Shown one piece after another: positions 32,166 through 49,967 of a stretch of 59,258 bases of DNA. Below the pieces are notes generated by a model. The model was not told the origin of the DNA and ran no database searches. It saw nothing but the letters and a program-made list of their open reading frames with translations. A program made the position numbers and the translations under genes. Source of the DNA: an uncultured bacterium (lineage in GTDB: Bacteria; Hinthialibacterota; Hinthialibacteria; Hinthialibacterales; JAKPRU01); contig CAZTDD010000026.1 of the NCBI GenBank assembly GCA_964612675.1, positions 1 through 59,258 on the forward strand, read 5' to 3'. Position 1 is the stretch's first letter. Each line of letters begins with the position of its first letter.

Positions 32166-32612
32166 TTAGTCTGGGACCGAAATTGCTTCCACCTCTTCGT
32201 GCCCTTTCGGTATGGGACTGGGTCCCAGTCGGGCGACACGTTCGCTCATTTCAGTCACGATTTCAGCGAACCGCCCACCCTCCGCAGAAGAAAGGTTGAA
32301 CATTTCGAGACGTTCGGGTTCTAGACCGATTTCTTCAAGAAGCTTTTTGGCGCGTTCGACCCGTCGACGTGCACGCAGGTTCCCTTCGAGGAAGTGACAA
32401 CCGCCTTCGAGACAACCGGCAACCATCACAGCGTCTGCGCCGCGTTCGAATGCAGCCAGGATATGATTGATCTCGACTTTTCCCGTACACGGTAGCCTCA
32501 ACACCCGCACGTTCTGCGGGTATTGGAGGCGCATCGAGCCTGCCAGGTCCGCAGCCGCGTAGGCGCAATAATGACAACAGAAAGCGAGTATCAGCGGTTC
32601 TTTTTCTGCCAT
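32166..32612 (-). CDS. mvhD: MvhD/FlpD-family iron-sulfur protein
   Basis: FCCHYCAY...CTGKV...GADAVMVAGC.EGGCHF.EGN signature. Confidence 0.85.
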   Translation of the reverse strand: MAEKEPLILAFCCHYCAYAAADLAGSMRLQYPQNVRVLRLPCTGKVEINHILAAFERGADAVMVAGCLEGGCHFLEGNLRARRRVERAKKLLEEIGLEPERLEMFNLSSAEGGRFAEIVTEMSERVARLGPSPIPKGHEEVEAISVPD

Positions 32613-32618
32613 TCGACT

Positions 32619-35600: not shown

Positions 35601-37145
35601 GCGCGATGTTTTCAGTTCGAAAAGCTGTGCGAGTTTCTGGTCGGCCGATTGACTAACCGCCGGAATGAGAGTGTCTGCCTCAATTGTGAACTCGGAACCT
35701 TCGACCGGCACCGGACGTCGGCGGCCGCTTTCATCGGGTTCGCCCAATTCCATGCGGATGCATTCGATGGCGGATACACGATTGTTCTCGGATCGAACTT
35801 TCGTAGGCGCTGCGAGATAGTGGATTTTGATATCCTCAGCCAAGGTAGCGTCGATTTCCGATTCGTCGGCAGGCATCTCTTGGCGCGTACGTCGATACAC
35901 AATAGTGACTTCGTCCGCTCCGAGCCGTTTCGCCGTTCGCGCAACGTCGACCGCCGTGTTGCCGCCCCCGATAATCACAATTCGTTTCCCTGCCCCTGTC
36001 GGTTCACCGAGGGTGTGTTTTCGGAGGAAATCGACACCGTGGACAACTCCCTCGGTATCCTCTCCTGGAATCCCGAGTTTTCGACTGTGATGAGCCCCCG
36101 TCCCCACGAAGATCGCATCGAATTGGCTCTCCATTTGTTCGACGGAAATGCCGTCGCCAACAGGAGTCGCCGTCTTGAATTCGACACCGAGAGATCGAAT
36201 CCCGTCGAGATCCCGCTTCAGGATATCGGGTGGAAGTCTGTATTGGGGGATTCCGACTGCCAACATTCCCCCCAGAACGGGCAGCGCCTCGAAAACGGTA
36301 ACGTTATGGCCCTTAAGAGCCAATGAGTGGGCCGCTGCCAGCCCTGCTGGTCCGGAGCCGACAATCGCAACCGATTTGCCGGTCGATTGAATTCCTTCAG
36401 GTGGTTCGCTTGAAGGATACAGATCCATTGCAAACCGTTTCAGGCCGCGAATATTGACCGGTTCGTCGATCGCGCCTCGATTGCATTCACTCTCACAGGG
36501 GTGAAAACAGACACGCCCGCAGATCGAAGGAAGAGGATTCTCGCGGCGAATTACTTCAGCGGCCTCTTTGAATTTTCCGTCGCCGATAAGAGCAACGTAG
36601 GCTTGGACACTGTGATCGATGGGACAGCCCGAACTGCAGGTCGCACGACCGTTTTTCTGGATGACATTCGCATTCGGAGCCGCCTGGGCGTATACACGAT
36701 CGATTGCCTTCCGTGTCCCGAGACCGGCGTCGAACTGACTCGGAAGATCCACGGGACATACTTTTGTACAGTCGCCGCATGCCGTACATTTATCGACGTC
36801 GATAAAACGCGGCCGTTGACGAATCGTGGCTTTGAAATTCCCTTGGTCTCCTTCAAGTCCGTCCAACTCCGCCATTGTATAAACGTCGATGTTGTGATCC
36901 CTCAAACATTCGACGAGTTTTGGTGAAATAATACAGGTAGCGCAGTCGCCGGTTGGGAACGTTTTATCGAGGCGGGACATGCCTCCACCGACAGCCGCGT
37001 TCTGCTCAACGAGATAAACACGAAACCCGGCCGCCGAAAGATCCAGGGAAGCCTGTATCCCGGCGACGCCCGCACCGGAGACCAACACCGCGCCGCGCGG
37101 TTCTTTGCCATTTGTCGAGGATGTCTTCTGCTGGACTTCACTCAT
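32619..37145 (-). CDS. 1508-aa HdrA-family fusion: HdrA(N) + ferredoxin + GltD/NfnB-like NAD(P)H-FAD module + ferredoxin + HdrA(C) + second complete HdrA-like module + ferredoxin
   Basis: GAGVAGIQASLDL and TFPTGDCATCII (HdrA). ICGRVCFHPCESEC with GSGPAGLAAAH and RMELGEPDESGRRRPV (GltD-like). CVGSRD..YCSSICCM (HdrA core). A second AALVVGGGIAGM..CVEQRNDEHPYCSRVCC module follows. Stop/start overlap with hdrB. Confidence 0.85.
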   Translation of the reverse strand: MSEVQQKTSSTNGKEPRGAVLVSGAGVAGIQASLDLSAAGFRVYLVEQNAAVGGGMSRLDKTFPTGDCATCIISPKLVECLRDHNIDVYTMAELDGLEGDQGNFKATIRQRPRFIDVDKCTACGDCTKVCPVDLPSQFDAGLGTRKAIDRVYAQAAPNANVIQKNGRATCSSGCPIDHSVQAYVALIGDGKFKEAAEVIRRENPLPSICGRVCFHPCESECNRGAIDEPVNIRGLKRFAMDLYPSSEPPEGIQSTGKSVAIVGSGPAGLAAAHSLALKGHNVTVFEALPVLGGMLAVGIPQYRLPPDILKRDLDGIRSLGVEFKTATPVGDGISVEQMESQFDAIFVGTGAHHSRKLGIPGEDTEGVVHGVDFLRKHTLGEPTGAGKRIVIIGGGNTAVDVARTAKRLGADEVTIVYRRTRQEMPADESEIDATLAEDIKIHYLAAPTKVRSENNRVSAIECIRMELGEPDESGRRRPVPVEGSEFTIEADTLIPAVSQSADQKLAQLFELKTSRWGTIETDEVTMVTSRENVFAGGDVVVGPSSVIDAIAHGKQAAQAIDNYLAERPVQEGLSKREKRLNPLSDEELAKIKKRTKRAPRVPHQEVPVVERLSDFREVEATYSEDEAQAEARRCLACAGCAECMLCVEACQAGAINHFEPEKSFDLDVGAVLLTPGFDAFDATRRGEFGFGFAPNVVTNVQFERILSASGPTEGHIVRPSDGKKPKRLAFIQCVGSRDNGCGNDYCSSICCMAATKEAILAKEHEPDLDMTVFFLDLRAFGKDFDRYCERAKKMGIHYVRSFVSRTYEMPGTHNLRLNYFSSDLKQVEEEFDMVILSLGLEPSESIREQAAKIGVELNQWGFAKTRELAPLETSRPGVFVGGVFQEPKDIPDTVMQATGSAARAMALLSAARGTEVRTKSYPQERDITDEPPRVGVFICHCGSNIASVVDIEKVVERARGLPNVVFADHSVYTCADDTQDQIKKIIRDEHLNRVVIASCTPRTHEPIFRDTLRDAGLNPYLLEMANIRDQCSWVHSDNPQKATEKAIDLIRMIVGRAANLQPLEEETVPINNAALVVGGGIAGMTATLALAEQGFPVHLVEKGERLGGTAQQIHRTLDGDDIQKFLSHTVENVKKNPLITVHLNTHIDKVDGHIGEFTSQLSSNGNVEEVEHGVVVVATGATEKKPSSFGYGKSNRVVTQLELTDRMARQDLGIPEEPTIAMIQCVEQRNDEHPYCSRVCCTTAVKNALLLLERYPKARIVILYRDMRTYGFREAAYREAREKGVLFVRYEQETPPELTVEGQRICLRFNEPSLNSQMEIHPDTVVLAAPMVPRADREELSELLRVPLNADGFFLEAHMKLRPVDFASEGLFLCGTAHAPKFITETISQANAVAARAASILSKKEMPVSAQIAWVDPDQCISCMTCVHVCPYMAPTVGQDNKAVIQQAVCMGCGSCTAECPARAIQLRHYMNAQILGAVNSLLGARKEETELAYPELVGVAPPRWHKG

Positions 37146-38029
37146 TGCGATTCAACTCCACAAGCCGCTGTCTTATTTCCGAACAAAGGTTCCGCACTCA
37201 CAGTCAGCGCTGTTAGACCGAGTTCCTCTGAGGACAGTCCCAACGCGAGTCCTAGAAGCTGTGTTATATAAAGCACGGGCGTATCGGAGATACCGCCGTG
37301 AGCTTGTCTCATGTCCGATTGCCGTAGGTCGAGATTGGCCTGACATAACGGACACGCAACTACCAAACAATCTGCGCCGGCCTCACGCGCCATAGTGAGG
37401 AGTCTGTAGCCAAGACGGCTTACGACATCGGAATTCGTCAGCGACAGCCCTGCACCGCAGCATTCGGTTTTGTAAGGCCAAGAGACGGAAAAAGCTCCGA
37501 CCGCCTCAACCAGCTCGTCCATACACGTCGGATTCTCCGCATCGTCGAACGCAACCACTTCCGGTGGCCGCGACAAGAGACAACCATAATAGCTCGCGAC
37601 ACGCAAACCTTTCTGAGAAGCAGTGACCTTCCTGCGAATCACGTCCGGTCCGATATCGTTCATTAACACATCGAGGATATGGCGCACTGCCACGCTACCG
37701 TCATAGGAACGGCCCACGATGCGGTTGGTTCGCTCTCGCTCTTCGGGATTGTTCTTGACCTTGTAATTGGCTGTCCGAAGACGCGCATAACAGGAGGCAC
37801 AAGCGGTCAGCACATCGAGCCCCATGGTTTGAGCCTTTTGGAGGTTCATCACAGGCAGCGCCACCGCGAGAGAAGCGTTGCTGGTATGCGCGGGAGTCGA
37901 TCCGCAACACACCCAGTCCGGTATTTCCTCGAGCTCAATATCCAAAGCCCGGCATAGCGCTCGGGTCGAGCGATCGAAATCCCAAGCCGTCGATTCAAGA
38001 CTACAACCGGGATAATAAGCGTATTTCAC
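37142..38029 (-). CDS. hdrB: heterodisulfide reductase subunit B (two CCG domains)
   Basis: Duplicated C..CCG..C...C motifs (WVCCGSTP and TECCGAG). Confidence 0.9.
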   Translation of the reverse strand: MKYAYYPGCSLESTAWDFDRSTRALCRALDIELEEIPDWVCCGSTPAHTSNASLAVALPVMNLQKAQTMGLDVLTACASCYARLRTANYKVKNNPEERERTNRIVGRSYDGSVAVRHILDVLMNDIGPDVIRRKVTASQKGLRVASYYGCLLSRPPEVVAFDDAENPTCMDELVEAVGAFSVSWPYKTECCGAGLSLTNSDVVSRLGYRLLTMAREAGADCLVVACPLCQANLDLRQSDMRQAHGGISDTPVLYITQLLGLALGLSSEELGLTALTVSAEPLFGNKTAACGVESQ

Positions 38030-38592
38030 CGCTTCCTCTCCTCTTCTTGGGCTCGGCGAAAGACCTCTCTAACCTCGCCCGCGCTTCCGCTGCGCGATGG
38101 GAGAAGAGAGAGTTTTCCTTTCGAGAACATTTTCGGTGCTTTGTCTACGTCGGAAAAGAAGTCGCCGGATCGGATTTTGTAGGCGGTCAACATGCCCAGT
38201 TCGAAAACGCGCCCGTGACGGCGAACGCTCTGCAGAAACGAACGATTGAACCGCTCTCCGCGCGAGTCGGGAACCGACACTTTTCGCTCAACCGCCATCA
38301 TCCGCAGTGTGTCCATGACGGCGGCGATGTCAATTCCCATAGGGCAGCGCGTTGTACAGGCTTCACACGACGCACACAGCCAGATAGCGCGCGATTCGAG
38401 AGCCTTCGATTCCTCGCCGAGATGAATCAGACGCATAATCTGACTGGACAGAAAATCCATTTCCGGAGCAACCGGGCAGCCGGTTGAACACTTGTGGCAT
38501 TGGAAGCACGCACTAACCGGAGTGCCGCTGCGGCGTTCCACCTCGTGCAAAAAGCGAGTCTCTTTCCATTCAACTGTTGAAGTCATCTTCAT
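38026..38592 (-). CDS. hdrC: heterodisulfide reductase subunit C (2x[4Fe-4S])
   Basis: CFQCHKCSTGCP and CASCEACTTRCP. Confidence 0.88.
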   Translation of the reverse strand: MKMTSTVEWKETRFLHEVERRSGTPVSACFQCHKCSTGCPVAPEMDFLSSQIMRLIHLGEESKALESRAIWLCASCEACTTRCPMGIDIAAVMDTLRMMAVERKVSVPDSRGERFNRSFLQSVRRHGRVFELGMLTAYKIRSGDFFSDVDKAPKMFSKGKLSLLPSRSGSAGEVREVFRRAQEEERKR

Positions 38593-41261
38593 TCACTCAA
38601 TAATTCAAAATCGGGTTCCGGCTCTTCCTGTGCCATGGCGCTGGGAACGACTTTCCGATACACCTCGAATGGTTTCCGCAACACGCCATCGACAGTCAAA
38701 AGGTCTCGTTCGATCTCTATACCGAACAGACGCTCGTTCTCTCGCAGATAGGGTAGTATCAATTTCCAGTCTTCGGCTGTAAGCGATTGGTACGCTCCGG
38801 CGTTGAGCTGTTCCTGCACAAGCGTGCGATGCGGATCGCGAACGTAAATCGCGCCTCCGGAGGCCAGAGAAAGCAGATTGCTGCCCGGGTAAGGCAAATC
38901 CAGAGGAACGACACGGCCGTTCTCATCGAATCGGATACCATTCACAATTGCGAATCCGCCTCCCTTGAGTGGGTCGCCCGCCATGAACGACTCCGCCAGG
39001 AAATCGAGAGCGGTTCCGTTAATCACCACCCGGGGTTTCCCGACAGCGTTGATCATCGGCCTCCCGGCGGCGTTCCCCATGACATAGAATTCCCCGCCCT
39101 TCGCACCGTAAAGAAACGTCTGACCGACGTCGCCGTAAATCACGATTTTGCCTCGTTTGGCAATTTGGCAGAGCTGATCCTGCGCGTTGCAATGAACAAG
39201 CGCTTCGAGACCGTCTAGACCGGACCCGAGATAATCGCCGGGATTGTCATAACAATCCACACGAAGCCCGTCGGAGCTGGGACCGAAACCGGCCGCGTGA
39301 AAACGCGTCCCCCGCGTGTTGTAATGGATCAACCATTTCCAGCCGAGCTGGTAGGCATCGACCGCGAGTTTCGCGTCGCACGTCGGACCTTCGGGTGTAA
39401 AACCTCTCGCGTCAATCAAAAGGACTCTTTCGCCCGGGCGAGGTTCGCGGAGATCTTCACGTATCTCCCAATTCACTCTGCGACATGTTGACTCCGCTGT
39501 ATCGGTAAGAAGCGGTTGGCTCTCGAAAATCTTTCCAAGCCCGTCACGCAGAATGGTCAGAATGGAACTTCGCTTTTTCTCTCCGGTTGGATACTGACGG
39601 TCTAAACAAAGGGTCAATGCCTGGATACCGAGAAGCGGGTTGCTCTCTCCGCTTCGTTTTGCCGTTTCATCGACAAACCACCGAAGGCGGTCGTATGTCA
39701 TTTCCGCGAGAGAATCGCGAAAATACTCAAAAATGACTACAGGATTGTTACTCTCAATCGCACGTTGAATTTCCGCAGCGTCTCGCTCGCGTTCCTGCTC
39801 GGAAGGGGTCTTTAGTTCGGCGGTTGGTTTGTAAGCAACCTGATTTTGAGGCACCGTTACAGGAAGGCCGAACTTATTCGTCACTTGCATCGAGTAATGA
39901 CCGTTGCTGCCCGCAGAGCCGTTCGACGGGACAACATTCATCGCAAATGCCCCACCGTCCGAGTAACTTCCACCGCGCGCGTTCCAGTACATATCCGCAA
40001 CAGGCCGGAAACGGTTGTCTTCGGACGACAAACTGGCCAACGTCGCATCAATCGCCTGTTTTTCGGAACAGATCAACCCGGTAGAGACTTCGCCTTCCTG
40101 TAACGCGAAAACTTGCGGCCGCAGCATCGCTGTATCCGTGATTCCAACCAATTGATAGCCGGCTTCTTTTCCGAGATTGCGCGCAATGATGAAAAACCAC
40201 GGACCGTCGGGCGATCCGTGCATATGTGCCGCCTGGATTTGACGATAAATCCGACGCTTGTCCGCAGCCAACCGGTCGAAGTCCAGTTCGGTAGTCGGTG
40301 CGAGCGCTTCGATGATGTATTCCAGGGGATACTTGTATGTCCGGTTCATTAAATCGAAAAGAAGTACCGAGACTTCAGTATCTGTAATAAACAATGGAAA
40401 TAGATTCCGCTGCGCAAGATACTCGCTGACCGAAACATAATTGGCAAAGTCGCCGTTATGTACCAGCGCTTCGTTCATCCCAATGAACGGGTGGGCTCCG
40501 CCGGGATGCCATACACGACCACGCGTTGGATAGCGCTGGTGAGCGATCCACACATGGGCACGTAAATCCGGCATCCGGTAATACTGAACCGCAGCCTCGG
40601 CGTATCCCACGATTTTAATGATAAAGAGATTCCGAGCGTGCGAGAGAACGAAAGCCCGCTTCTCGCCCAAAGAAGAATAGAATTCCGTATTCAACAGAAA
40701 CGAATTCTGAAAAACAAATTCATCCTCGATTTCGCGTTCGGGAAGATGAGTCAGTCCTTTTTCCTGAGCGAACTGTGCGAGGACGTCCGACTTCACACGA
40801 ACGAAATACCGGGCGACTTCCGGGGGTTTGATCTCCAGCAATGGTACGTCCCGGTAATCGTCGACAGTTGGAATCACCCCTCCCTGATGAATATCGAAGT
40901 ATGGCTCGATACGGCTCTTTTCGACATCCTTCTGCGCCTCAGGATCCAAGAGGGCGATTTGGAGGATATAGTCTTCGTCGATCTCTTTTTGCGTGACGCC
41001 CAGATCCTCGGGCACAATCCCGCATGCGGCAATTCCGCCTCCCCGTCCGTTTCCGCGATTCCGCATTTGGATGGAGGGCTCGTAGATGTGACGGCCCCCG
41101 ACAGGGACGGTACAAGCGAATCCCGTCACACCGCAGCCGCCCTCGGCTTCCGTGGGTTTTGGGAACCAGGATTCGCCCTCTTTAGGCCGCAGATGGGATC
41201 GCGACCGAATCAGCATATTGGCCCGATTCAAGTTATTGATTTCCATTGTCTTTGAACTCAT
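38589..41261 (-). CDS. glutamate-synthase-like fusion: class-II glutamine amidotransferase (GltA-like) + GXGXG domain (GltC-like)
   Basis: The GGCGVTGF Ntn-type Cys is preceded by ~40 aa. C-terminal IVIYGDVGQTFLYGAKGGEFYVMGNAAGRPM...NGTALDF GXGXG repeats. Confidence 0.75.
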   Translation of the reverse strand: MSSKTMEINNLNRANMLIRSRSHLRPKEGESWFPKPTEAEGGCGVTGFACTVPVGGRHIYEPSIQMRNRGNGRGGGIAACGIVPEDLGVTQKEIDEDYILQIALLDPEAQKDVEKSRIEPYFDIHQGGVIPTVDDYRDVPLLEIKPPEVARYFVRVKSDVLAQFAQEKGLTHLPEREIEDEFVFQNSFLLNTEFYSSLGEKRAFVLSHARNLFIIKIVGYAEAAVQYYRMPDLRAHVWIAHQRYPTRGRVWHPGGAHPFIGMNEALVHNGDFANYVSVSEYLAQRNLFPLFITDTEVSVLLFDLMNRTYKYPLEYIIEALAPTTELDFDRLAADKRRIYRQIQAAHMHGSPDGPWFFIIARNLGKEAGYQLVGITDTAMLRPQVFALQEGEVSTGLICSEKQAIDATLASLSSEDNRFRPVADMYWNARGGSYSDGGAFAMNVVPSNGSAGSNGHYSMQVTNKFGLPVTVPQNQVAYKPTAELKTPSEQERERDAAEIQRAIESNNPVVIFEYFRDSLAEMTYDRLRWFVDETAKRSGESNPLLGIQALTLCLDRQYPTGEKKRSSILTILRDGLGKIFESQPLLTDTAESTCRRVNWEIREDLREPRPGERVLLIDARGFTPEGPTCDAKLAVDAYQLGWKWLIHYNTRGTRFHAAGFGPSSDGLRVDCYDNPGDYLGSGLDGLEALVHCNAQDQLCQIAKRGKIVIYGDVGQTFLYGAKGGEFYVMGNAAGRPMINAVGKPRVVINGTALDFLAESFMAGDPLKGGGFAIVNGIRFDENGRVVPLDLPYPGSNLLSLASGGAIYVRDPHRTLVQEQLNAGAYQSLTAEDWKLILPYLRENERLFGIEIERDLLTVDGVLRKPFEVYRKVVPSAMAQEEPEPDFELLSE

Positions 41262-41476
41262 ATCCGTCTCGGCTCGGCGGGAGCCTCGCCCTCCCGGGCC
41301 TGTCGCCTTCTGAATTTGGCTCCCCTAGTCCTTCTCGGCTCGGCAGGAGCCTCGCCCTCCCGGGCCTGTCGCCTTCCGGATTTGTCTCACCTAGTCCTTG
41401 AACTCATGTTCGTCTCGGCTCGGCGGGAGCCTTGCCCTCCCGGGCCTGTCGCCTTCCGGATTTGTCTCACCTAGTT
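41262..41476. repeat. three tandem 66-80-bp units, each with a GGGAGGGCGAGGCTCCCGCCGAGCCG hairpin (minus-strand sense), between two operon genes
   Basis: Units start near 41267, 41333 and 41413. Each also duplicates the first ~14 nt (ATGAGTTCAAG) of the downstream gene start. Confidence 0.75.
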
Positions 41477-43039
41477 TTGCGGAGAGCCTTCGTAATCTAA
41501 ATGCGTTAGTAAATCGGTCCGCCCGCGAAGGGCCTGTACTGAGTCGAGTCCCAGGCGATACAAGATGTCGATCAACATCTCGCGCCAGGCGTTGTACATG
41601 TTCACGAGTCTCTGGGTACACCAATCGATGGTGACCATTTCCAGAAGTTCCGGGTCCGTCGTTGCGATTCCGCGTGCACAGCCTCGCCCGCTCTCACAAC
41701 AACCGCATCGGATACAGCCCAGAGCGACAAGTTCCGCCGTGCCGATAATGACGCCATCCGCTCCCAGGGCGATCGATTTCGCAATATCGTCAGGCGTCCG
41801 TATGCCGCCGCTGACCATCAGACTCACTTCATCGCGGACCCCTTCATCCACGAGGAAGCTATGTACCATGTTGATGGCATACTCGATCGGCATCGCAATG
41901 TTCTTTTTCGCGATGTTCGGCGCGGCTCCGGTCCCTCCGTAGCTTCCATCCAGATGAACAATGTGCGAGCCCGCACAATACGATCCGACTGCTACCATAT
42001 CCACATCGGCGGGAGTCGAGACTTTCGTCGAAAGAAGCGCCCGCGGATTGATGTGGGCTATCCAATCGAGATGTTTCTTATGATCTTCGATGGAGTAGAC
42101 ACTGTGAAATGGAAACGGCGAGAAAAGAGACGTACCGACAACCGCCTCGCGCATCCTCGCGACATCGGGAGTATTCTTGTCGCCGAGAAGGTGTCCGCCG
42201 AGGCCCGGCTTGGCACCCTGTGCGTACTTGAATTCGACGATTCGTGCACGTTGAATGGTCTCTTCCCGTACTCCGAATAGTCCGGTGGCGACCTGGGTGA
42301 TCATGTGATCCGCGTAAGGAATCATCCGGTCGGGATATCCGCCTTCTCCCGTGCAGCTGAACGAATTCCAGGCTTTCGCCGCCCGCGCCTTCGCCAACAA
42401 AGCCCGCAGGTTGGTCGACCCGTACGACATCCCGCCACCGTACCACGGAATATCGATTTTCACTCTCGGACGCGAGTCGTTGCGCCGATTCAGTACCAGT
42501 TCCGTAGAAATATCTTCGCGCCGTAAATCCGCAGGCGGAGAGTCCGGGAACAGAAATCGGAGACGATCGAAACCGCCACCGGATGCGCCGATTGCACTTT
42601 CAAGATGGGGCGGCGGCACCTCACCGGTCTCGGCCATCATCCATGTAGCAACCAGCAAATCCGCCGGCCATCGATGATCGCCCATGGTATCGAACGCCGG
42701 ATTTCGGCTGAGGGAGAGCGCACCGACCGGACAAGTATCGATGCAGTAATGGTCCGTCTTGGCACAGTCAAAGCCGATACAACGATAGTCAAACGGACGC
42801 GTCATACGGCGGTATCCCTCGGGACGGACATGCACCTCGTGAGGGCAGGTTTCGACGCATTTTCCACAAGCGATACAGTTGGACGCCCGGAACAGGCTGA
42901 ACTTGCCGATCTCGTTCCGGTAACGTGGCGGCGCGGGATTCAATTCTCTTGAGACCTTTGCGTACTCGGGCTTTGACGCGAATTCATCGCCGCGTTGCGG
43001 GTGAATCGTGGATACATCGGCTGCCGGTGTTGCGTTCAT
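41471..43039 (-). CDS. archaeal-type glutamate synthase FMN-binding (GltB-like) subunit with N-terminal 2x[4Fe-4S]
   Basis: CIACGKCVETCP..CIGFDCAKTDHYCIDTCP, then MVSGGIRTPDDIAKSIALGADGVIIGT FMN barrel, then CIRCGCCESGRGC. Confidence 0.8.
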   Translation of the reverse strand: MNATPAADVSTIHPQRGDEFASKPEYAKVSRELNPAPPRYRNEIGKFSLFRASNCIACGKCVETCPHEVHVRPEGYRRMTRPFDYRCIGFDCAKTDHYCIDTCPVGALSLSRNPAFDTMGDHRWPADLLVATWMMAETGEVPPPHLESAIGASGGGFDRLRFLFPDSPPADLRREDISTELVLNRRNDSRPRVKIDIPWYGGGMSYGSTNLRALLAKARAAKAWNSFSCTGEGGYPDRMIPYADHMITQVATGLFGVREETIQRARIVEFKYAQGAKPGLGGHLLGDKNTPDVARMREAVVGTSLFSPFPFHSVYSIEDHKKHLDWIAHINPRALLSTKVSTPADVDMVAVGSYCAGSHIVHLDGSYGGTGAAPNIAKKNIAMPIEYAINMVHSFLVDEGVRDEVSLMVSGGIRTPDDIAKSIALGADGVIIGTAELVALGCIRCGCCESGRGCARGIATTDPELLEMVTIDWCTQRLVNMYNAWREMLIDILYRLGLDSVQALRGRTDLLTHLDYEGSPQN

Positions 43040-43042
43040 TTC

Positions 43043-44437
43043 CTACTGTGCTCCAACCTGGACCTTCCTCTTTCCAAAGATACGTCCGAATGTGTTGCGT
43101 TCAAGATCCTCAAAGAACATACAGCGGCCTGTTTCGCCGCGCAGACGACGAACCTCACGGATCCCCATAGCGCCCAGCATCTCCAACAGCTGGCTATGCC
43201 ACGCGCTCATCAGATTGACAATCCTCTGGACGGCGTATTCAGGATCGGCTTCGTCCAGCGCGACAGGACACATCTCGCCGTGCTCGCATTCGCCGCAGAG
43301 TCTGCATTCCAATGCGACAATGAGGGGAACATCGATAGCGATCAGGTCCGCTCCGCATATCACCGCTTTGGCCATGTGCTCGGCTAGAGCGATTCCCCCG
43401 GAGGCAATGATGGTTACCTCGTCGCGTGAGCCTTCCTTGACCAATGCGCCGTGTACATCCCGCAAGACATCGCGCATATGTCTCGGATCGGGCGCAACAT
43501 CCTCTTTTCCGTGGATATCGAACCGAATATGAATCACCTCAACGCCTGCCCGGGTCAATTCGAGGACTCGATCCGTGACTCGCGGAGTCGCGAAGAGGCG
43601 TACGGCGACAACCTGGCTGGGGTTCTTTTCTTTCAGTGCTTGACATGTGGAGGAAATGTCGTCCCGCTCCGGTACCATGACCATCGGCGCGGAGGCGAAT
43701 GTCTCGACCTCCGACGGGTCGGAAACCAGTGGAATAATATGTCCTCCGAGCGTCTCTTCAATGATCTCGCTCTCTCGTAAAACGGCCATTGTGCCGATTT
43801 CCGCGGCCGCTTTGGCAACCGACCGTACCACAGGGCCTCTGCACCAATGGTCCGGAATGATGTCGAAAATCAACGGAAGCGGCGTCTCCAGCAACGGGGG
43901 AAAGGGATCATCCTGTCGATCGTCTTGAAAAGTCAGGTGAGACAGTTTTCGGCCGATATCGACGCTTGTGTTGATGTATTCCCGGCCGTGGATACCGTCC
44001 CGGGTGGGCCGCACGATCTCGGACATGTCCGTCCACATGGAATCGAATCCCGAGCCACTGAACGGTCCGCCGTAGCCCGCGCCGGTCACGGGGATTTTGC
44101 CGGTTTCCGCCTGGAACCACGTTGTAAGGATAGTGTCTGGAGTATAATAGTGGTCCCCGAGCCGCCGGTATTCAGGATTCACAACGCGGGTCAGAATCCC
44201 CTTCGTACAGTCCTGAACACAGTTCAGGCAGCCTTTGCACTGATAGATATAGTCGAGATACCCGAGTTCATCGCGCAAGGTATCGGCTTCTTCGCGATAG
44301 AAACCGTAAACACAGCTTCGTTTGACACAATTATGACAGCTGGAGCAGTCTTCCCGCCAATCCACGATTCCGAGTTTGCCGACGGGTCGTGTGCGGGGAG
44401 AGACCGGAACGGGATGGATTGTGTACTTTATTGGCAC
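43043..44437 (-). CDS. second GltB-like FMN-domain paralog with N-terminal ferredoxin
   Basis: CSSCHNCVKRSC..CKGCLNCVQDC, then IIASGGIALAEHMAKAVICGADLIAID, then CRLCGECEHGEMC. Confidence 0.7.
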   Translation of the reverse strand: MPIKYTIHPVPVSPRTRPVGKLGIVDWREDCSSCHNCVKRSCVYGFYREEADTLRDELGYLDYIYQCKGCLNCVQDCTKGILTRVVNPEYRRLGDHYYTPDTILTTWFQAETGKIPVTGAGYGGPFSGSGFDSMWTDMSEIVRPTRDGIHGREYINTSVDIGRKLSHLTFQDDRQDDPFPPLLETPLPLIFDIIPDHWCRGPVVRSVAKAAAEIGTMAVLRESEIIEETLGGHIIPLVSDPSEVETFASAPMVMVPERDDISSTCQALKEKNPSQVVAVRLFATPRVTDRVLELTRAGVEVIHIRFDIHGKEDVAPDPRHMRDVLRDVHGALVKEGSRDEVTIIASGGIALAEHMAKAVICGADLIAIDVPLIVALECRLCGECEHGEMCPVALDEADPEYAVQRIVNLMSAWHSQLLEMLGAMGIREVRRLRGETGRCMFFEDLERNTFGRIFGKRKVQVGAQ

Positions 44438-44439
44438 GG

Positions 44440-45372
44440 CTAATCGATCCTTAGTCCTGTTTTTTGAATCACTTCCAGTGTCGCATCTTCATCGCCGCAG
44501 ATCTCGAATCCCCGCAACCCCTCAATCGATGAGAGCCGCTGAATGGCCTCCACAGCGATGTCGATTCCCGCAGAACGCTGCGCCGTCTCCTCGGTTTGTG
44601 ACTGGATGCGCTCAATGAGAGCATCCGGCACTCTTGGCGATGGACGTTTGGCTGCAAATTCTCTGGCGGACTGCGCATCCGTCAGGATATGGATACCCGC
44701 CAGTATAGCAGTCTTCTTATGGACACCGGTCTCAGCGACCTGTTTCCACCAGATGTCGAAGCGGTCTATGTCGAAAACCGGCTGAGTAATCAGAAACTGA
44801 GCCCCTGCGTTCACTTTCTTCACGACCCGCATCACCTGCAGTTCCATCGGGTCCGCGAAGGGGGAGGCGACAGCACCGAGACAGAACGGACCTGCACCAT
44901 TCAATTGCTCTTGCCCAACAATCGACGCATCGGATTCGATCCTCGAAATTGCCTGGATCAACTGAGTTGAATCGATGTCGAAAACGTTTTTCGCGGCTCG
45001 CGAACGTCCCAAGGTTTGGTGAGCGCCGGTATTGGAGAGAACGTTCCGAATGTTGAGGGCAGCGGCCCCAAGGATGTCGGATAGAAGTGCGATACGGTTT
45101 CTGTCGCGTGTGACCATGTGGAGGATCGGCTCCACACCTTCAGCGTTGAGCAGCGAAGCTGCTGCGAGAGCCGACATCGTGACCCCGTCCCGGTTGTCGC
45201 TCACACCGACGGCATGCACTTTGCCGCTGAGTTTCTTGGCTGCGTTTCGAATCGGTTCGGGATCGGCGCTCGACGGGGGCGCTATCTCGGCAACGACAAT
45301 TGATTGCCCCGATTGGATTCGTTTATGAAGTGCTGTTTTCGCTTTGTCCATTGTCCTCAACCTGTCATACAT
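44440..45372 (-). CDS. metF: 5,10-methylenetetrahydrofolate reductase (acetogen-type MetF)
   Basis: MTHFR TIM-barrel similarity (SIVVAEIAPP..., ...LITQPVFD...). Immediately upstream of the glt-like and hdr genes with a 2-nt gap. Confidence 0.75.
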   Translation of the reverse strand: MYDRLRTMDKAKTALHKRIQSGQSIVVAEIAPPSSADPEPIRNAAKKLSGKVHAVGVSDNRDGVTMSALAAASLLNAEGVEPILHMVTRDRNRIALLSDILGAAALNIRNVLSNTGAHQTLGRSRAAKNVFDIDSTQLIQAISRIESDASIVGQEQLNGAGPFCLGAVASPFADPMELQVMRVVKKVNAGAQFLITQPVFDIDRFDIWWKQVAETGVHKKTAILAGIHILTDAQSAREFAAKRPSPRVPDALIERIQSQTEETAQRSAGIDIAVEAIQRLSSIEGLRGFEICGDEDATLEVIQKTGLRID

Positions 45373-45437
45373 CGAAATGGAATCGGCCGGCTGTTCTGCA
45401 GTGCGTCGTGAGTCGTAAATTCACTCGACAACTTCTG

Positions 45438-45857
45438 TTATTCAGCTCTGAGGAGCGGACTATCACCTAATTCTGCAAACCGGGAAACCGCAGAACGAAT
45501 CTCGTTCTCAAGCTTCTCGGGAGCATCCTCAGGAGAACACTCAAGTAATCGGACCCGGTCGGGTTCAATTCCGATTTCCGAGAGAAGCCGCTGAACAGTA
45601 TGAGTCCGCACCTCCGCTCGATAGTTGCCCTGCGCCAGTCGACATTCGCCTTTCGGACACGCGACAACGCAAACACCGCGTCCGCCTCCTTCAAGAGCAT
45701 GAAAGAGATATTGGATATCGATTTTGCCGCTGCACGGGATCTCCTGGACGCGCACATGTACGTCGTCCTGCTTCCATTGACGGGGGACCTTTGCCCCGTG
45801 AGGTACGCAGTTGTGGCAGACATAAACCAGTACATCGGGACACACAGGATTCGTCAT
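45438..45857 (-). CDS. second MvhD/FlpD-family protein (first gene of the operon)
   Basis: VYVCHNCVP...PCSGKID..LFHALEGGGRGVCVVACPKGECRLAQGN. The ATG at 45857 has an AGGTG RBS; the track start at 45953 lacks one. Confidence 0.75.
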   Translation of the reverse strand: MTNPVCPDVLVYVCHNCVPHGAKVPRQWKQDDVHVRVQEIPCSGKIDIQYLFHALEGGGRGVCVVACPKGECRLAQGNYRAEVRTHTVQRLLSEIGIEPDRVRLLECSPEDAPEKLENEIRSAVSRFAELGDSPLLRAE

Positions 45858-46018
45858 TGGGTTAGCCACACCTACTTTTCTCTTCGATATGGGGTACGTA
45901 CCTCGAATATCGACAAAGGGTACCAAACGGCCTTTGCGGACCGCTGGTCTCATGTATCGAATCCGAGCAACAAGAGAGAGAAATGTTTACTCTGCCAGCT
46001 GGAACCTGTCAACCCTAG

Positions 46019-46038
46019 TTTGGCAATAGATTGCCAAA
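46019..46038. promoter_or_regulatory. perfect palindrome TTTGGCAAT-AG-ATTGCCAAA upstream of the redox operon
   Basis: 9-bp arms and a 2-bp spacer. About 65-160 nt upstream of the first operon start codon, and 60 nt downstream of the FGE gene. Confidence 0.45.
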
Positions 46039-46934: not shown

Positions 46935-47053
46935 CGTCTTATCGCGCACCAGTCCACTAGCCACGTAATATGTGTCCGTCCTAGTATAGCGGAACCATAC
47001 CAGTTCGATGAAAGTACGCAAGATCTTTGCACATCGGAAAGGAGCCGATCGGC

Positions 47054-49961: not shown

Positions 49962-49967
49962 GGTCAA

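What the first reader, a model, noticed from the sequence alone, without database searches (positions are those of the whole stretch)
38589..44437. Glutamate-synthase-like module with a duplicated FMN subunit and a GltA+GltC fusion carrying a ~40-aa pro-sequence
**Seen in sequence.**
- There are two paralogous FMN-barrel (GltB-like) proteins. Each has an N-terminal 2x[4Fe-4S] ferredoxin and a C-terminal C..C..C...C cluster.
- A single protein fuses the Ntn amidotransferase (GGCGVTGF) to the GXGXG domain.
- The catalytic Cys of the amidotransferase is ~40 residues downstream of the annotated start.

**Established knowledge.** Ntn glutaminases need Cys1 at the mature N-terminus.

**Inference.** Either a long propeptide is removed, the real start is different, or the amidotransferase is non-catalytic and the module is a pure redox (GltS-like, non-GOGAT) enzyme. 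The latter is consistent with its embedding in an Hdr operon.
Basis: partly seen in the sequence, partly recalled or inferred. Interest (0 to 1): 0.55.

Follow-up and report, generated by a model that had tools for sequence, protein, structure and literature searches.

The report
Glutamate synthase inside an Hdr–MetF operon
The three genes look like a working but unusually built glutamate synthase (the enzyme that puts nitrogen into amino acids), and in many uncultured anaerobes they sit in one operon with a folate reductase and heterodisulfide-reductase-type electron carriers, a link I found in no paper.

Summary
Window 38589-44437 (minus strand) encodes three proteins:
- GltB' (464 aa).
- GltB (522 aa).
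- A glutaminase + GXGXG fusion, GltAC (890 aa), whose catalytic-type Cys is residue 43.

- Cys43 and every glutamine-binding residue are invariant in 80-82 relatives.
- The N-terminal domain models confidently as a GltS-type glutaminase.
- A 26-42-residue extension ending in E-G-G|C is conserved in all relatives, and no start codon lies next to the Cys.
- E. coli GltB also has a pre-Cys peptide.

So this is most likely a propeptide-processed, active enzyme. GltB keeps all FMN and 2-oxoglutarate motifs. GltB' is a decayed paralog that keeps only its 12 cysteines.

The more interesting result is context. The GltB'-GltB-GltAC triad is invariant across about 80 species of more than 10 phyla. MetF lies directly upstream in 48 of 53 loci and MvhD in 41 of 44. 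In this window the triad sits inside a complete MetF...HdrCBA-MvhD-MetV ("type IV MTHFR") operon. Variants without MetFV sit next to glutamine synthetase and an ammonium transporter.

Best reading: a distinct glutamate synthase lineage fed through an Fe-S/MvhD/Hdr hub. How it couples to MetF is unresolved.

The parts
45438..45953 (-). MvhD1: MvhD/FlpD-like small Fe-S protein, first gene of the operon
   Evidence: PF02662 FlpD, 88.8 bits. An MvhD gene lies upstream of the triad in 41/44 evaluable relatives. A TTGACA-N17-TAAACA promoter-like site and a palindrome lie just upstream.
44440..45372 (-). MetF: methylenetetrahydrofolate reductase catalytic subunit
   Evidence: PF02219 MTHFR, 99.7 bits, full length. 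The E. coli Glu28 and Gln183 equivalents are conserved; the Asp120 position is Ala here. MetF lies directly upstream of GltB' in 48/53 relatives.
43043..44437 (-). GltB': degenerate paralog of the GltS FMN subunit. It keeps three 4-Cys motifs and has lost the substrate/FMN motifs.
   Evidence: PF01645 at 58.1 bits, C-terminal half of the profile only, and no NCBIfam hit. 29% identical to GltB. 12 Cys conserved in 59-60/60 relatives, while barrel core aa 161-335 is only 36% conserved. Present in 58/58 relatives.
41471..43039 (-). GltB: GltS synthase (FMN) subunit with an N-terminal 2x[4Fe-4S]-type domain and a C-terminal CxxCxxCx5C motif
   Evidence: PF01645 at 291.7 bits. E=4e-47 to A. brasilense GltS alpha residues 879-1170. 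The motifs KYAQGAKPGLGGHLLGDK, SPFPFHSVYSIEDH, GGTGAAP and SGGIR are >=98% conserved. 12 Cys conserved in 58/58.
41263..41475 (-). Three tandem copies of a 66-80 bp GC-rich unit filling the GltB-GltAC spacer. The first ATG of GltAC lies inside the last copy.
   Evidence: 3 matches against 0 expected; found nowhere else in the window.
41136..41261 (-). Codons 1-42 of GltAC: conserved N-terminal extension (putative propeptide) ending E-A-E-G-G
   Evidence: An extension of 26-42 codons with conserved motifs is present in 77 relatives. E40, G41 and G42 are invariant. Predicted helix aa 2-20, with pLDDT about 94 for aa 11-20.
39927..41135 (-). GltAC aa 43-445: GltS-type Ntn (class II) glutaminase domain beginning at Cys43
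   Evidence: C43, R69, R243, T246, N269, G270 and D294 are invariant. They align to GlmS R73/T76/N98/G99/D123. AlphaFold pLDDT 89.8; best Foldseek hits are GltS alpha subunits 7mfm_G, 6s6s_A, 1ea0_A and 1ofe_A, E 1e-12 to 4e-11.
39345..39926 (-). GltAC aa 446-639: poorly conserved linker containing a confidently predicted helical bundle (about aa 488-581). No counterpart was identified.
   Evidence: 38% mean conservation. pLDDT about 90 for aa 490-620 in the full-length model. No Pfam hit.
38589..39344 (-). GltAC aa 640-890: GXGXG beta-helix domain (GltS domain 3 / FwdC-like), up to the stop codon
   Evidence: PF01493 at 39.7 bits, above the cut-off of 32.5. BLASTP E=5e-4 to E. coli GltB 1325-1472. 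Foldseek hits to GltS alpha and FwdC. 72% conserved.
38026..38592 (-). HdrC-like 2x[4Fe-4S] subunit (4-nt overlap with GltAC)
   Evidence: PF13183 and TIGR03290. Immediately downstream of GltAC in 31/37 type-1 relatives.
37142..38029 (-). HdrB-like CCG-domain subunit
   Evidence: PF02754 CCG x2; TIGR03288 at 199 bits.
32619..37145 (-). HdrA with an inserted GltD-like NAD(P)H/FAD/2x[4Fe-4S] module ('HdrL' type), 1508 aa
   Evidence: HdrA2 model at 964.8 bits in 4 stretches. PRK12771 NAD(P)-binding at 579 bits, above its cut-off, for aa 160-669. The HdrL concept comes from PMC2702500. HdrA follows the triad in 32/32 type-1 relatives; the NAD(P)H module is GltD-like, NuoEF-like or absent.
32166..32612 (-). 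MvhD2: canonical MvhD
   Evidence: PF02662 at 172.6 bits.
31394..32086 (-). MetV: Fe-S partner subunit of MetF, last gene of the operon
   Evidence: PF12225 (MTHFR C-terminal / DUF5981) at 123.9 bits. 70-85% identical copies sit at the same position in type-1 relatives.

Best explanation
GltB and GltAC form the catalytic core of a genuine glutamine-dependent glutamate synthase (GOGAT) of a separate, previously uncharacterised lineage. GltB' and MvhD1 are its electron-entry subunits.

Proposed mechanism:
1. GltAC is made as a precursor. Its 37-42-residue N-terminal peptide is cut at G42|C43, probably autocatalytically and possibly only after assembly, which exposes Cys43 as the Ntn nucleophile.
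2. Glutamine is hydrolysed at that site.
3. Ammonia passes to the FMN site of GltB. The fused GXGXG beta-helix plays the structural role it has in canonical GltS.
4. Ammonia adds to 2-oxoglutarate, and the 2-iminoglutarate is reduced by FMNH2 to glutamate.
5. FMN is re-reduced one electron at a time through a chain of up to six [4Fe-4S]-type clusters, three in GltB and three in the catalytically dead paralog GltB', plus MvhD1.

In this window the chain is plugged into a MetFV-HdrABC-MvhD ('type IV MTHFR') assembly whose HdrA carries a GltD-like NAD(P)H module. NAD(P)H oxidised on HdrA would then supply both reductases, MetFV (methylene- to methyl-THF) and the GltS module.

Shown: the domain anatomy, residue conservation, fold and gene linkage.
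Inferred: the processing step, the activity, the order of the electron path, and that MetFV and GltS are parallel acceptors rather than donor and acceptor.
For: Glutaminase is intact.
- C43, R69, R243, T246, N269, G270 and D294 are invariant in 80-82 sequences spanning 53-84% identity.
- They align to the GlmS glutamine-site residues.
- The model of aa 1-480 (pLDDT 89.8, pTM 0.91) matches GltS glutaminase domains (E about 1e-12, TMq 0.5-0.6) better than GlmS or PurF (E about 1e-7).

Propeptide.
- It is conserved in length and motif in 77 loci, and E-G-G|C-G is invariant.
- E. coli GltB also has a pre-Cys peptide.

Synthase site.
- GltB aligns to A. brasilense GltS 879-1170 at E=4e-47.
- The QGAKPG Lys, the ARxR Arg, the SPPPHHDIYSIED-like and GGTGA motifs and the three [3Fe-4S] ligand positions are all kept, and are >=98% conserved.
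- GltB is the most conserved protein of the module, at 60-66% identity between the two cluster types.

Nitrogen context.
- L040 reads GlnA-Amt-MvhD-GltB'-GltB-GltAC-CPSase.
- GlnA passes the type-I GS equivalog cut-off and lies upstream in L059, L064 and L068.
- Amt follows the cluster in L001.

Interchangeable redox partners, as in other GltS classes.
- MetFV only (type 2), MetFV + Hdr (type 1), a GlcD/GlcF-like FAD dehydrogenase (L070), and giant single-chain fusions of FAD-oxidase + Fer4 + GltB + GltAC.

Operon unity.
- The genes have 4-nt overlaps.
- MetF and MetV, which form a tight MetVF heterodimer in characterised enzymes (PMC8760232), bracket the whole 14.5-kb operon.

The canonical GltS mechanism and domain roles are taken from PMC8097209.
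Against: - No biochemical or expression data exist for any member, and I found no paper on this module.
- Sequence similarity of GltAC to canonical GltS is very low. PF00310 does not hit, PF13522 is below its cut-off, and BLASTP to E. coli GltB detects only the beta-helix.
- A profile alignment to the E. coli GltB N-terminus failed, so the residue mapping rests on GlmS and on the fold.
- Some Desulfobacterota relatives carry a canonical gltB/gltD-like pair 6-8 kb away (L061, L064). There the module is not the only GOGAT and may have a specialised role.
- Both proposed acceptors, methylene-THF and 2-oxoglutarate + Gln, have a higher potential than NAD(P)H. The need for Hdr-type bifurcation machinery is therefore not explained by this model.
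- In type-2 clusters no NAD(P)H or Hdr module is encoded nearby (0/34).
- The GltB position equivalent to Gln978 of Fd-GltS is His. The residue numbering is from my own memory of the literature, and the offset is derived.
Confidence: 0.5

Rival explanations
1. Direct coupling. MetFV is the electron donor, not a parallel acceptor. Methyl-THF is oxidised to methylene-THF at MetF, and the electrons run through MetV, MvhD and GltB' to GltB, where they reduce 2-iminoglutarate. The enzyme would be a methyl-THF:2-oxoglutarate/glutamine oxidoreductase. Glutamine-driven glutamate synthesis would act as a high-potential sink that pulls the thermodynamically awkward methyl-THF oxidation. The glutaminase and propeptide parts are as in the best explanation.
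For: - The type-2 unit (MvhD-MetV-MetF-GltB'-GltB-GltAC) has no other conserved neighbour and no Hdr or NAD(P)H module. The only two substrate-level redox sites encoded are the MetF flavin and the GltB FMN.
- It occurs in Desulfobacula, Desulfosarcinaceae, Desulfatiglandales and similar MAGs.
- Own knowledge: complete-oxidising sulfate reducers run the Wood-Ljungdahl pathway oxidatively.
- Thermodynamics, from my own estimate and textbook values: methylene-/methyl-THF is about -200 mV, and 2-OG + Gln / 2 Glu is roughly -70 mV, so the reaction is downhill.
Against: - Nitrogen assimilation can absorb only a small share of a catabolic methyl flux.
- Module variants without any MetFV exist (L040, L045, L062, L070), so MetF cannot be the obligatory donor.
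- In type-1 clusters an NAD(P)H-binding HdrA is always present (32/32).
- The MetF Asp120 equivalent is not conserved (Ala in the window), which leaves its catalytic efficiency uncertain.
Confidence: 0.2
2. The GltS-like proteins have lost glutamate synthase chemistry and serve only as an FMN/Fe-S electron-transfer scaffold for the MetFV-Hdr complex. This would be analogous to RnfC2 or HdrABC in other MTHFR types. The glutaminase and GXGXG parts would be structural relics.
For: - The triad is tightly and widely linked to MetF, MetV and MvhD (48/53 and 41/44).
- One paralog, GltB', has demonstrably decayed into an Fe-S-only protein.
- The Cys is not N-terminal in the primary translation product.
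- GXGXG domains do act purely structurally in formylmethanofuran dehydrogenase FwdC (Foldseek hits; the role is from own knowledge).
Against: - A relic would not keep every glutamine-binding and oxyanion-hole residue, the nucleophile and the cleavage-site motif invariant across more than 10 phyla.
- It would also not keep the 2-oxoglutarate and FMN motifs of GltB at >=98%, when GltB' shows how quickly such motifs decay once unused.
- Glutamine synthetase and Amt neighbours of MetFV-less variants point to nitrogen assimilation.
Confidence: 0.12
3. The module is a GltS-like enzyme acting on a different amide or amine. The precedent is N-methylglutamate synthase (MgsABC), which is built from GltB1-, GltB3- and GltB2-like subunits. 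It could, for example, make or break an N-methylated glutamate derivative whose methyl group is exchanged with the folate pool through MetF.
For: - MgsABC shows that the three GltS domains can be used for a non-GOGAT reaction (PMC6237917).
- The link to a C1-folate enzyme is suggestive.
- A URO-D-family (methyltransferase-like) gene lies divergently next to the operon in the window.
Against: - No gmaS-type (type III) synthetase and no mgdABCD-like genes occur in the window or in 81 loci.
- The glutamine synthetases that are adjacent pass the type-I equivalog cut-off and fail the type-III one.
- The URO-D gene is not conserved in any relative.
- MgsC-type proteins are described without the ferredoxin-like extension seen here (442 aa).
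Confidence: 0.06
4. Annotation artefact. The true start lies just before the Cys, and the 'pro-sequence' is untranslated leader.
For: - The first ATG lies inside a tandem repeat.
- The NCBI gene call uses a different ATG, five codons later.
Against: - No ATG, GTG or TTG is conserved within the last 20 codons before the Cys.
- The upstream 20-30 codons are conserved at the protein level across phyla, in frame and without stops.
- The extension is predicted as a confident helix.
Confidence: 0.02

Closest known systems
Bacterial NADPH-GltS (GltB/GltD) and ferredoxin-GltS
   Same: - A PurF-type Ntn glutaminase with a pre-Cys peptide.
- An FMN synthase barrel with the same substrate motifs.
- An Fe-S cluster at the same position next to FMN.
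- A GXGXG beta-helix.
- A GltD-like NAD(P)H module is present in the operon, embedded in HdrA.
   Different: - The domains are split and permuted: glutaminase and beta-helix are fused, and the FMN domain is a separate protein.
- There is no central domain.
- A 4-Cys motif replaces the 3-Cys cluster motif.
- The FMN subunit has an extra 2x[4Fe-4S]-type domain.
- There is an extra degenerate paralog, GltB'.
- Sequence identity to the canonical alpha subunit is near the detection limit for GltAC.
Archaeal-type split glutamate synthase (separate ORFs for GltS domains 1, 2 and 3, e.g. the M. jannaschii MJ1351 type; reviewed in PMC8097209) and the putative F420-dependent GltS (PMC9012536)
   Same: - The FMN domain is a stand-alone protein of about 500 aa with an N-terminal ferredoxin-like domain.
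- There is no central domain.
- The electron donor module is exchangeable.
   Different: - Here domains 1 and 3 are fused through a helical linker of about 190 aa.
- A second, inactive domain-2 paralog and an MvhD are obligatory partners.
- I could not obtain the archaeal reference sequences, so no direct alignment was made.
Type IV methylene-THF reductase MetVF-HdrCBA-MvhD (Moorella thermoacetica type; Mock et al. 2014 as summarised in PMC8760232)
   Same: - The window operon contains hdrC-hdrB-hdrA-mvhD-metV in the Moorella order, plus metF.
- HdrA carries an NAD(P)H-binding module.
   Different: - metF is moved to the 5' end, and three GltS-like genes plus a second mvhD are inserted between metF and hdrC.
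- In Desulfobacterota the GltS genes accompany MetVF-MvhD without any Hdr.
N-methylglutamate synthase MgsABC
   Same: It is built from GltB1-, GltB3- and GltB2-like polypeptides, which sets the precedent for GltS-like modules with another function.
   Different: - There are no gmaS or mgd genes nearby.
- Fe-S domains and external electron partners are present here.
- Neighbouring GS genes are type I.
HdrL of Desulfobacterium autotrophicum (HdrA/GltD-like fusion)
   Same: The 1508-aa HdrA of the window has the same HdrA + GltD-like NAD(P)H module architecture and is followed by mvhD.
   Different: - In D. autotrophicum, HdrL loci were described next to dsr and other genes, not next to a GltS catalytic module.
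- In relatives of the window, the NAD(P)H insert is replaced by NuoE/NuoF-like genes or is missing.

Membership tests
Glutamate synthase (GltS/GOGAT) catalytic core | PurF-type (class II, Ntn) glutaminase domain with nucleophilic Cys and glutamine-binding Arg / Asn-Gly / Asp | tested here: met
   C43, R69, R243, T246, N269, G270 and D294 are invariant. They align to GlmS. The fold matches GltS glutaminase domains best.
Glutamate synthase (GltS/GOGAT) catalytic core | The Cys is the first residue of the mature protein | not testable with these tools
   The primary product has 37-42 residues before the Cys, conserved in all relatives. E. coli GltB has 11. Processing has to be shown by protein chemistry.
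Glutamate synthase (GltS/GOGAT) catalytic core | FMN-binding synthase barrel (PF01645) with 2-oxoglutarate/FMN motifs | tested here: met
   GltB scores 291.7 bits and E=4e-47 to PDB GltS, and its motifs are >=98% conserved. GltB' does not meet this feature.
Glutamate synthase (GltS/GOGAT) catalytic core | [3Fe-4S] cluster bound by three Cys (C1102/C1108/C1113 in A. brasilense) | tested here: not met
   The three ligand positions are conserved, but a fourth invariant Cys restores CxxCxxCx5C in GltB (C442/445/448/454) and CxxCxxCx5C in GltB' (C378/381/384/390). A [4Fe-4S] cluster is therefore expected; the cluster type itself cannot be tested here.
Glutamate synthase (GltS/GOGAT) catalytic core | C-terminal GXGXG beta-helix | tested here: met
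   PF01493 at 39.7 bits, above the 32.5 cut-off. BLASTP E=5e-4 to E. coli GltB 1325-1472.
Glutamate synthase (GltS/GOGAT) catalytic core | Central domain (PF04898) and the single-chain order glutaminase-central-FMN-beta-helix | tested here: not met
   There is no separate central domain: the only hit is 21.8 bits, below the cut-off, and lies inside the GltB barrel. The domains are split and permuted.
Glutamate synthase (GltS/GOGAT) catalytic core | Glutamine + 2-oxoglutarate + 2 e- -> 2 glutamate activity | not testable with these tools
   Only contextual support: GS, Amt and CPSase neighbours in variants.
Archaeal-type split GltS | Domain-2 protein with an N-terminal 2x[4Fe-4S] ferredoxin-like domain; domains 1 and 3 as separate proteins | tested here: inconclusive
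   The ferredoxin-like N-terminus is present in GltB, with 8 invariant Cys. Domains 1 and 3 are fused, not separate.
Type IV MTHFR (MetVF-HdrCBA-MvhD) | metF, metV, hdrA, hdrB, hdrC and mvhD in one cluster | tested here: met
   All six are identified by Pfam and NCBIfam in one co-directional, tightly spaced operon at 31394-45953.
Type IV MTHFR (MetVF-HdrCBA-MvhD) | MetF catalytic residues (E. coli Glu28, Asp120, Gln183) | tested here: inconclusive
   Glu28 is conserved in 50/50 and Gln183 in 47/50. The Asp120 column is Ala in the window and D/T/S in relatives, and the alignment is uncertain in that loop.
Type IV MTHFR (MetVF-HdrCBA-MvhD) | The complex consists of those six subunits only | tested here: not met
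   Three GltS-like genes and a second mvhD are inserted, in all 28-37 type-1 loci that reach far enough on the side in question.
N-methylglutamate synthase (MgsABC) | Genetic linkage to gmaS (type III GS-like) and mgdABCD | tested here: not met
   Neither is present in the window or the loci. Adjacent GS genes score 541-546 bits on the type-I model (cut-off 429) and 309-324 bits on the type-III model (cut-off 470).
HdrL (HdrA/GltD-like fusion) | HdrA domains interrupted by a GltD-like NAD(P)H/FAD module, followed by mvhD | tested here: met
   NCBIfam HdrA2 matches in 4 stretches, and PRK12771 scores above its cut-off on aa 160-669. MvhD2 lies downstream. The family definition is from PMC2702500.

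The most novel reading that the evidence does not exclude
The GltS module is a built-in, strongly exergonic acceptor branch of an HdrA-based flavin electron-bifurcating complex.
- NAD(P)H oxidised on HdrA would be split between glutamine-dependent 2-oxoglutarate reduction (and/or methylene-THF reduction) and ferredoxin reduction.
- The roughly 48 kJ/mol normally wasted by GOGAT would then be partly conserved as reduced ferredoxin.
- This would be the first energy-conserving (bifurcating) glutamate synthase.
- It would also offer a concrete candidate for the 'second, still unknown electron acceptor' of type IV MetVF-HdrCBA-MvhD enzymes (PMC8760232).
- In the Hdr-less Desulfobacterota version, the alternative is a direct methyl-THF-driven GOGAT.
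Probability: 0.2. Interest if true: 0.85.

Novelty: new variant of a known kind. Interest (0 to 1): 0.6.

Why it matters
Glutamate synthase is the main entry point of nitrogen into biomass. Its known electron donors are NAD(P)H through GltD, ferredoxin, and putatively F420.

This module would be a fourth wiring scheme. It has an MvhD plus a polyferredoxin-like dead paralog as the entry port, and it docks to Hdr-type, MetFV-type or 2-hydroxyacid-dehydrogenase-type partners.

It is not a curiosity of one genome:
- More than 7,600 database proteins match at E<=1e-5.
- The gene order is conserved in Omnitrophota, Planctomycetota, Hydrogenedentota, Kiritimatiellia, Fibrobacterota, Spirochaetota, Desulfobacterota and others.

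These are abundant, mostly uncultured anaerobes whose carbon and nitrogen budgets are inferred from annotation alone.

The finding also bears on an open question in acetogen and sulfate-reducer bioenergetics: what the Hdr-linked methylene-THF reductases couple to. For annotation, it shows that 'glutamate synthase' labels on these genes hide a ten-gene redox complex, and that GltB' should not be counted as a second FMN subunit.

Tried and rejected
- The full-length AlphaFold model of GltAC, from 39 close homologs, was poor in the glutaminase core (mean pLDDT 65), and its fold search recovered only the beta-helix part of GltS. I replaced it with a model of aa 1-480 built from a more diverse alignment.
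- hhalign of the family N-domain profile against the E. coli GltB N-terminus gave nothing. BLASTP and hhalign of GltAC against E. coli GltB found only the GXGXG region. Residue mapping therefore relies on GlmS and on the fold.
- The look-up of encoding contigs found no record for the window's own protein.
- Nine literature searches combining glutamate synthase/GltB/GXGXG with Hdr, MvhD, MetF, MetV or Desulfobacula found no description of this module. The hits concerned GltD/Nfn, HdrL or ordinary GOGAT.
- I found no paper stating the GltS propeptide lengths, so I used the RefSeq E. coli gltB sequence instead. My remembered '42-aa E. coli propeptide' belongs to an older, longer gene model and was dropped.
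- A sigma-54 promoter search as a test of nitrogen control gave no more matches than chance, and none upstream of the operon.
- The palindrome TTGGCAATAGATTGCCAA upstream of mvhD1 is not found in any relative.
- The sigma-70 and terminator scans were at chance level.
- The neighbouring URO-D-like and FGE-sulfatase genes were considered as parts of the system and rejected: they are absent from, or not syntenic in, the 81 loci.
- I considered whether the adjacent 'GlnA' genes could be GMAS-type. Rejected by NCBIfam cut-offs.

Full report
**1. What is there**

On the minus strand, window 31394-45953 carries ten co-directional genes, tightly spaced and several with 4-nt overlaps.

| Gene | Coordinates | Evidence |
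|---|---|---|
| mvhD1 | 45953-45438 | PF02662 |
| metF | 45372-44440 | PF02219 |
| gltB' | 44437-43043 | 464 aa |
| gltB | 43039-41471 | 522 aa |
| gltAC | 41261-38589 | 890 aa |
| hdrC | 38592-38026 | |
| hdrB | 38029-37142 | |
| hdrA | 37145-32619 | 1508 aa |
| mvhD2 | 32612-32166 | |
| metV | 32086-31394 | PF12225 |

The finding's coordinates (38589-44437) cover exactly gltB', gltB and gltAC.

**2. Checking the observation**

The two GltB-like proteins are paralogs: 29% identity, E=7e-24.

GltB is a good GltS synthase domain.
- PF01645 scores 291.7 bits.
- It aligns at E=4e-47 to residues 879-1170 of the A. brasilense alpha subunit.
- The alignment keeps the AQGAKPG, ARxR, SPxPxHxxYSIED and GGTGA motifs and the three [3Fe-4S] ligand positions.

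Across 58 orthologs those motifs are >=98% conserved. Twelve cysteines are invariant, arranged as three 4-Cys motifs:
- C55/58/61/65
- C87/92/99/103
- C442/445/448/454

GltB' keeps an equivalent set of twelve cysteines (59-60 of 60 sequences). Otherwise it has decayed.
- Its barrel core (aa 161-335) is only 36% conserved, against 80% for GltB.
- The substrate and FMN motifs are gone.
- Its Pfam match covers only the C-terminal half of the profile, and no NCBIfam model hits it.

So 'duplicated FMN subunit' should read 'one catalytic FMN subunit plus one Fe-S-only pseudo-enzyme paralog'.

The C-terminal motif of both proteins lies where canonical GltS has its 3-Cys [3Fe-4S] site. Here a fourth Cys restores CxxCxxC...C, so a [4Fe-4S] cluster is expected. 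That is an inference.

GltAC has three regions:
- An N-terminal region (aa 43-~445) with the class-II amidotransferase signatures HQRYPTRG...HNGDFANY...TDTE...LRPQ...SEKQA.
- A poorly conserved linker of about 190 aa that contains a helical bundle.
- A GXGXG domain, PF01493 at 39.7 bits.

Similarity to canonical GltS is very low.
- PF00310 is silent.
- BLASTP to E. coli GltB finds only the beta-helix.
- A search of 1.84 billion cluster representatives returns only 1213 hits at E<=1e-3.

An AlphaFold model of aa 1-480 built from a diverse alignment is confident (pLDDT 89.8, pTM 0.91). Its best structural matches are the glutaminase domains of glutamate synthases: 7mfm_G, 6s6s_A, 1ea0_A and 1ofe_A, with E from 1e-12 to 4e-11 and TMq 0.5-0.6. 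These rank ahead of GlmS and PurF at about 1e-7.

**3. The pro-sequence question**

I examined 77 relatives from more than 10 phyla.
- The Cys of CGVTGF is always preceded by an in-frame, stop-free extension.
- The extension's first ATG lies 26-42 codons upstream of the Cys.
- No start codon is conserved near the Cys.

The extension is conserved as protein:
- Type 1 reads ..R(S/A)R..LRP.G.WF..SPEAEGG|C.
- Type 2 reads ..ILASRG.LPH..TP.NKCDEEGG|C.
- E40, G41, G42, C43 and G44 are invariant.

The model predicts a confident helix for aa 2-20.

The glutamine-site constellation is invariant in 80-82 sequences. It comprises Cys43, Arg69, Arg243, Thr246, Asn269-Gly270 and Asp294. Apart from the early Arg69, these correspond to GlmS Cys1, Arg73, Thr76, Asn98-Gly99 and Asp123.

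A pre-Cys peptide is normal for this enzyme class. The RefSeq E. coli GltB begins MLYDKSLERDN|CGFG. From my own knowledge, B. subtilis PurF and A. brasilense GltB are also processed.

The extension is therefore best read as a propeptide. Its unusual length, structure and conservation suggest that it does more than wait to be removed, for example by delaying activation until the complex has assembled. That last point is an inference.

In this window the first ATG lies in the last of three tandem 66-80-bp repeats that fill the gltB-gltAC spacer. The NCBI call starts five codons later. Either start leaves at least 37 residues before the Cys.

**4. Context in relatives**

The family is large. More than 7,600 proteins match at E<=1e-5, and the best 120 are all about 870-960 aa and 66-84% identical. 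In one genome per species (GTDB), 143 stretches were confirmed as relatives. I analysed the best 80 loci, plus one locus found through a homolog look-up, 81 in all.

Linkage across all loci that could be evaluated:

| Feature | Count |
|---|---|
| gltB directly upstream of gltAC | 60/60 |
| gltB' upstream of gltB | 58/58 |
| mvhD upstream | 41/44 |
| metF directly upstream of gltB' | 48/53 |

Two arrangements exist.

*Type 1* (62-84% identity) occurs in MAGs labelled Omnitrophota, Planctomycetota, Hydrogenedentota, Kiritimatiellia, Fibrobacterota, Spirochaetota, Nitrospirales, Polyangia and one Bathyarchaeia.
- The triad is followed by hdrC-hdrB in 31/37 loci.
- hdrA follows in 32/32, then mvhD2 and metV.
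- This is the window's order.
- The second half of the operon is the Moorella-type hdrCBA-mvhD-metV arrangement.
- In L022, metF sits after metV, as it does in Moorella.

*Type 2* (about 56% identity) occurs in Desulfobacula and other Desulfobacterota, plus a few others.
- The order is mvhD-metV-metF-gltB'-gltB-gltAC.
- No Hdr is nearby (0/34).
- There is no other conserved neighbour.

The NAD(P)H module of HdrA varies. It can be a GltD-like insert, as in the window and in the 'HdrL' of D. autotrophicum (PMC2702500). It can be replaced by separate NuoE/NuoF-like genes. It can also be absent (L010, L017, L018).

**5. What the exceptions say**

The few loci without metFV are informative.
- L040 reads glnA-amt-mvhD-gltB'-gltB-gltAC-carbamoyl-phosphate synthase.
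- L045 is flanked by a glutamine-dependent NAD synthetase and by hisF.
- L070 has a GlcD/GlcF-like FAD dehydrogenase with an Fe-S domain directly upstream.

glnA also lies upstream of complete type-2 clusters in L059, L064 and L068. In L068 it is followed by a class-II aaRS-like core protein, which is possibly an AsnA-type asparagine synthetase.

An ammonium transporter follows the cluster in L001.

The glnA products pass the NCBIfam type-I glutamine synthetase cut-off and fail the type-III (GMAS-like) one.

Distant relatives of GltAC (30-38% identity) occur inside giant bacterial single-chain proteins of 1,600-3,150 aa. These combine FAD_binding_4/FAD-oxidase_C, ferredoxin domains, a Glu_synthase barrel and the glutaminase-GXGXG unit.

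Together these loci show a catalytic GltS unit with exchangeable electron-delivering partners, plus recurrent nitrogen-assimilation neighbours.

**6. Mechanism**

The parsimonious reading has five steps.
1. GltAC is processed at G42|C43.
2. Glutamine is hydrolysed.
3. Ammonia reaches 2-oxoglutarate at the GltB FMN site.
4. 2-Iminoglutarate is reduced to glutamate. Steps 2-4 follow the canonical chemistry reviewed in PMC8097209.
5. FMN is recharged through the clusters of GltB, GltB' and MvhD1.

I put about 0.75 on the GOGAT chemistry as such.

How electrons arrive, and why MetFV is the usual companion, is not settled. My preferred version (0.5 for the whole statement) is a shared redox hub. 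In it, NAD(P)H oxidised on HdrA supplies both MetFV and the GltS unit.

The main rival (0.2) is direct coupling, in which methyl-THF oxidised at MetF drives glutamate synthesis.
- The Hdr-less type-2 unit favours it.
- By my estimate it is downhill: about -200 mV for methylene-/methyl-THF against roughly -70 mV for 2-OG + Gln / 2 Glu. That figure is my own calculation from textbook equilibrium data.
- MetFV-less variants and flux arguments count against it.

The 'pure redox scaffold' reading (0.12) conflicts with the invariance of both active sites, when GltB' shows how fast unused sites decay. An MgsABC-like alternative substrate (0.06) lacks its expected genetic partners.

**7. Comparison with the known, and novelty**

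Here a type-IV gene set encloses a complete glutamine-dependent reductase. That makes a coupled or bifurcating GOGAT a testable idea, to which I give probability about 0.2. A caveat applies: 2-OG + Gln is a high-potential acceptor, so on its own it cannot be the low-potential branch of a bifurcation.

I found no paper describing this module or its linkage (nine searches; see 'tried and rejected'). Database names are only 'glutamate synthase', 'glutamate synthase domain-containing protein 1/3' or 'hypothetical protein'.

I file it as a new variant of a known kind: GltS chemistry with a permuted, fused architecture, a dead Fe-S paralog, and MvhD/Hdr/MetFV wiring.

The conserved operon context is the part worth following up.

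Noticed in passing
window 41263-41475 (minus strand; gltB-gltAC spacer): Three tandem copies (period 66-80 bp) of a GC-rich unit containing GGCGACAGGCCCGGGAGGGCGAGGCTCCCGCCGAGCCGAGA, found nowhere else in the window. Copies 1 and 3 end in ATGAGTTCAA(G/A)GAC, so the first ATG of gltAC is part of the repeat, and copy 1 opens a 5-codon mini-ORF. This could be a leader or regulatory element, or just a duplication.
   Followed up: partly
proteins P0151 (3016 aa), P0177 (3152 aa), P0220 (2526 aa), P0227 (2204 aa, Brocadiia MAG), P0208 (1606 aa, Omnitrophota MAG); locus L070 4139-5983: Giant bacterial single-chain proteins fuse a GlcD-like FAD-linked oxidase (FAD_binding_4 + FAD-oxidase_C), ferredoxin domains, a Glu_synthase FMN barrel and a GltAC-like glutaminase-GXGXG unit. 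In L070 the same dehydrogenase is a separate gene directly upstream of the triad. This suggests a 2-hydroxyacid-driven glutamate synthase.
   Followed up: partly
window 32619-37145 and loci L001, L002, L010, L012, L017, L018: The NAD(P)H-binding part of the HdrA in these operons is interchangeable. It is a GltD-like insert (window; HdrL type), or separate NuoE/NuoF/2Fe-2S genes between two HdrA fragments (L001, L002, L012...), or there is no insert at all (L010, L017, L018).
   Followed up: partly
window 44440-45372 (MetF), residue 117: The position aligned to E. coli MetF Asp120, which from memory matters for folate binding and catalysis, is Ala in the window. In relatives it is D/T/S/A (23/20/4/2), while Glu28 and Gln183 are conserved. 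The alignment in this loop is uncertain.
   Followed up: partly
window 46020-46037, with TTGACA-N17-TAAACA at about 46013-45985 (minus strand): A perfect palindrome, TTGGCAATAGATTGCCAA, lies immediately upstream of a promoter-like site in front of mvhD1. It is unique in the window (0.03 expected) but absent from all 85 loci. It is close to a sigma-54 -24/-12 element but not a canonical one.
   Followed up: yes
window 47027-48250 (+) and 46098-47021 (-): A URO-D-family protein (PF01208; a methyltransferase-like MtaA/MtbA-type fold) is divergently adjacent to the operon region, and an FGE-sulfatase-domain protein sits between it and mvhD1. Neither is syntenic in relatives.
   Followed up: partly
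window 49152-49967 (-): An encapsulin shell protein gene (PF04454 Linocin_M18, 290 bits) lies 3 kb from the operon. Its cargo was not looked for.
   Followed up: no
locus L068 3456-4688; also L059: Between glnA and the mvhD-metV-metF-gltB'-gltB-gltAC cluster lies a 410-aa protein. It consists only of a class-II (D/K/N) aminoacyl-tRNA-synthetase catalytic core (PF00152, 29.8 bits), the architecture of AsnA-type or archaeal asparagine synthetases. That makes another ammonia-handling neighbour.
   Followed up: partly
locus L036 (contig labelled Candidatus Bathyarchaeia): A complete type-1 operon, 70% identical to the window's GltAC, sits on a contig binned as an archaeon. This is either horizontal transfer or a binning error.
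   Followed up: no
window 32109-32128 (minus strand; between mvhD2 and metV): An 8-bp GC-rich hairpin (CCCAGCGATTCATCGCTGGG) followed by a T-rich stretch lies in the 79-nt gap before metV. The number of terminator-like sites in the region is at chance level.
   Followed up: no
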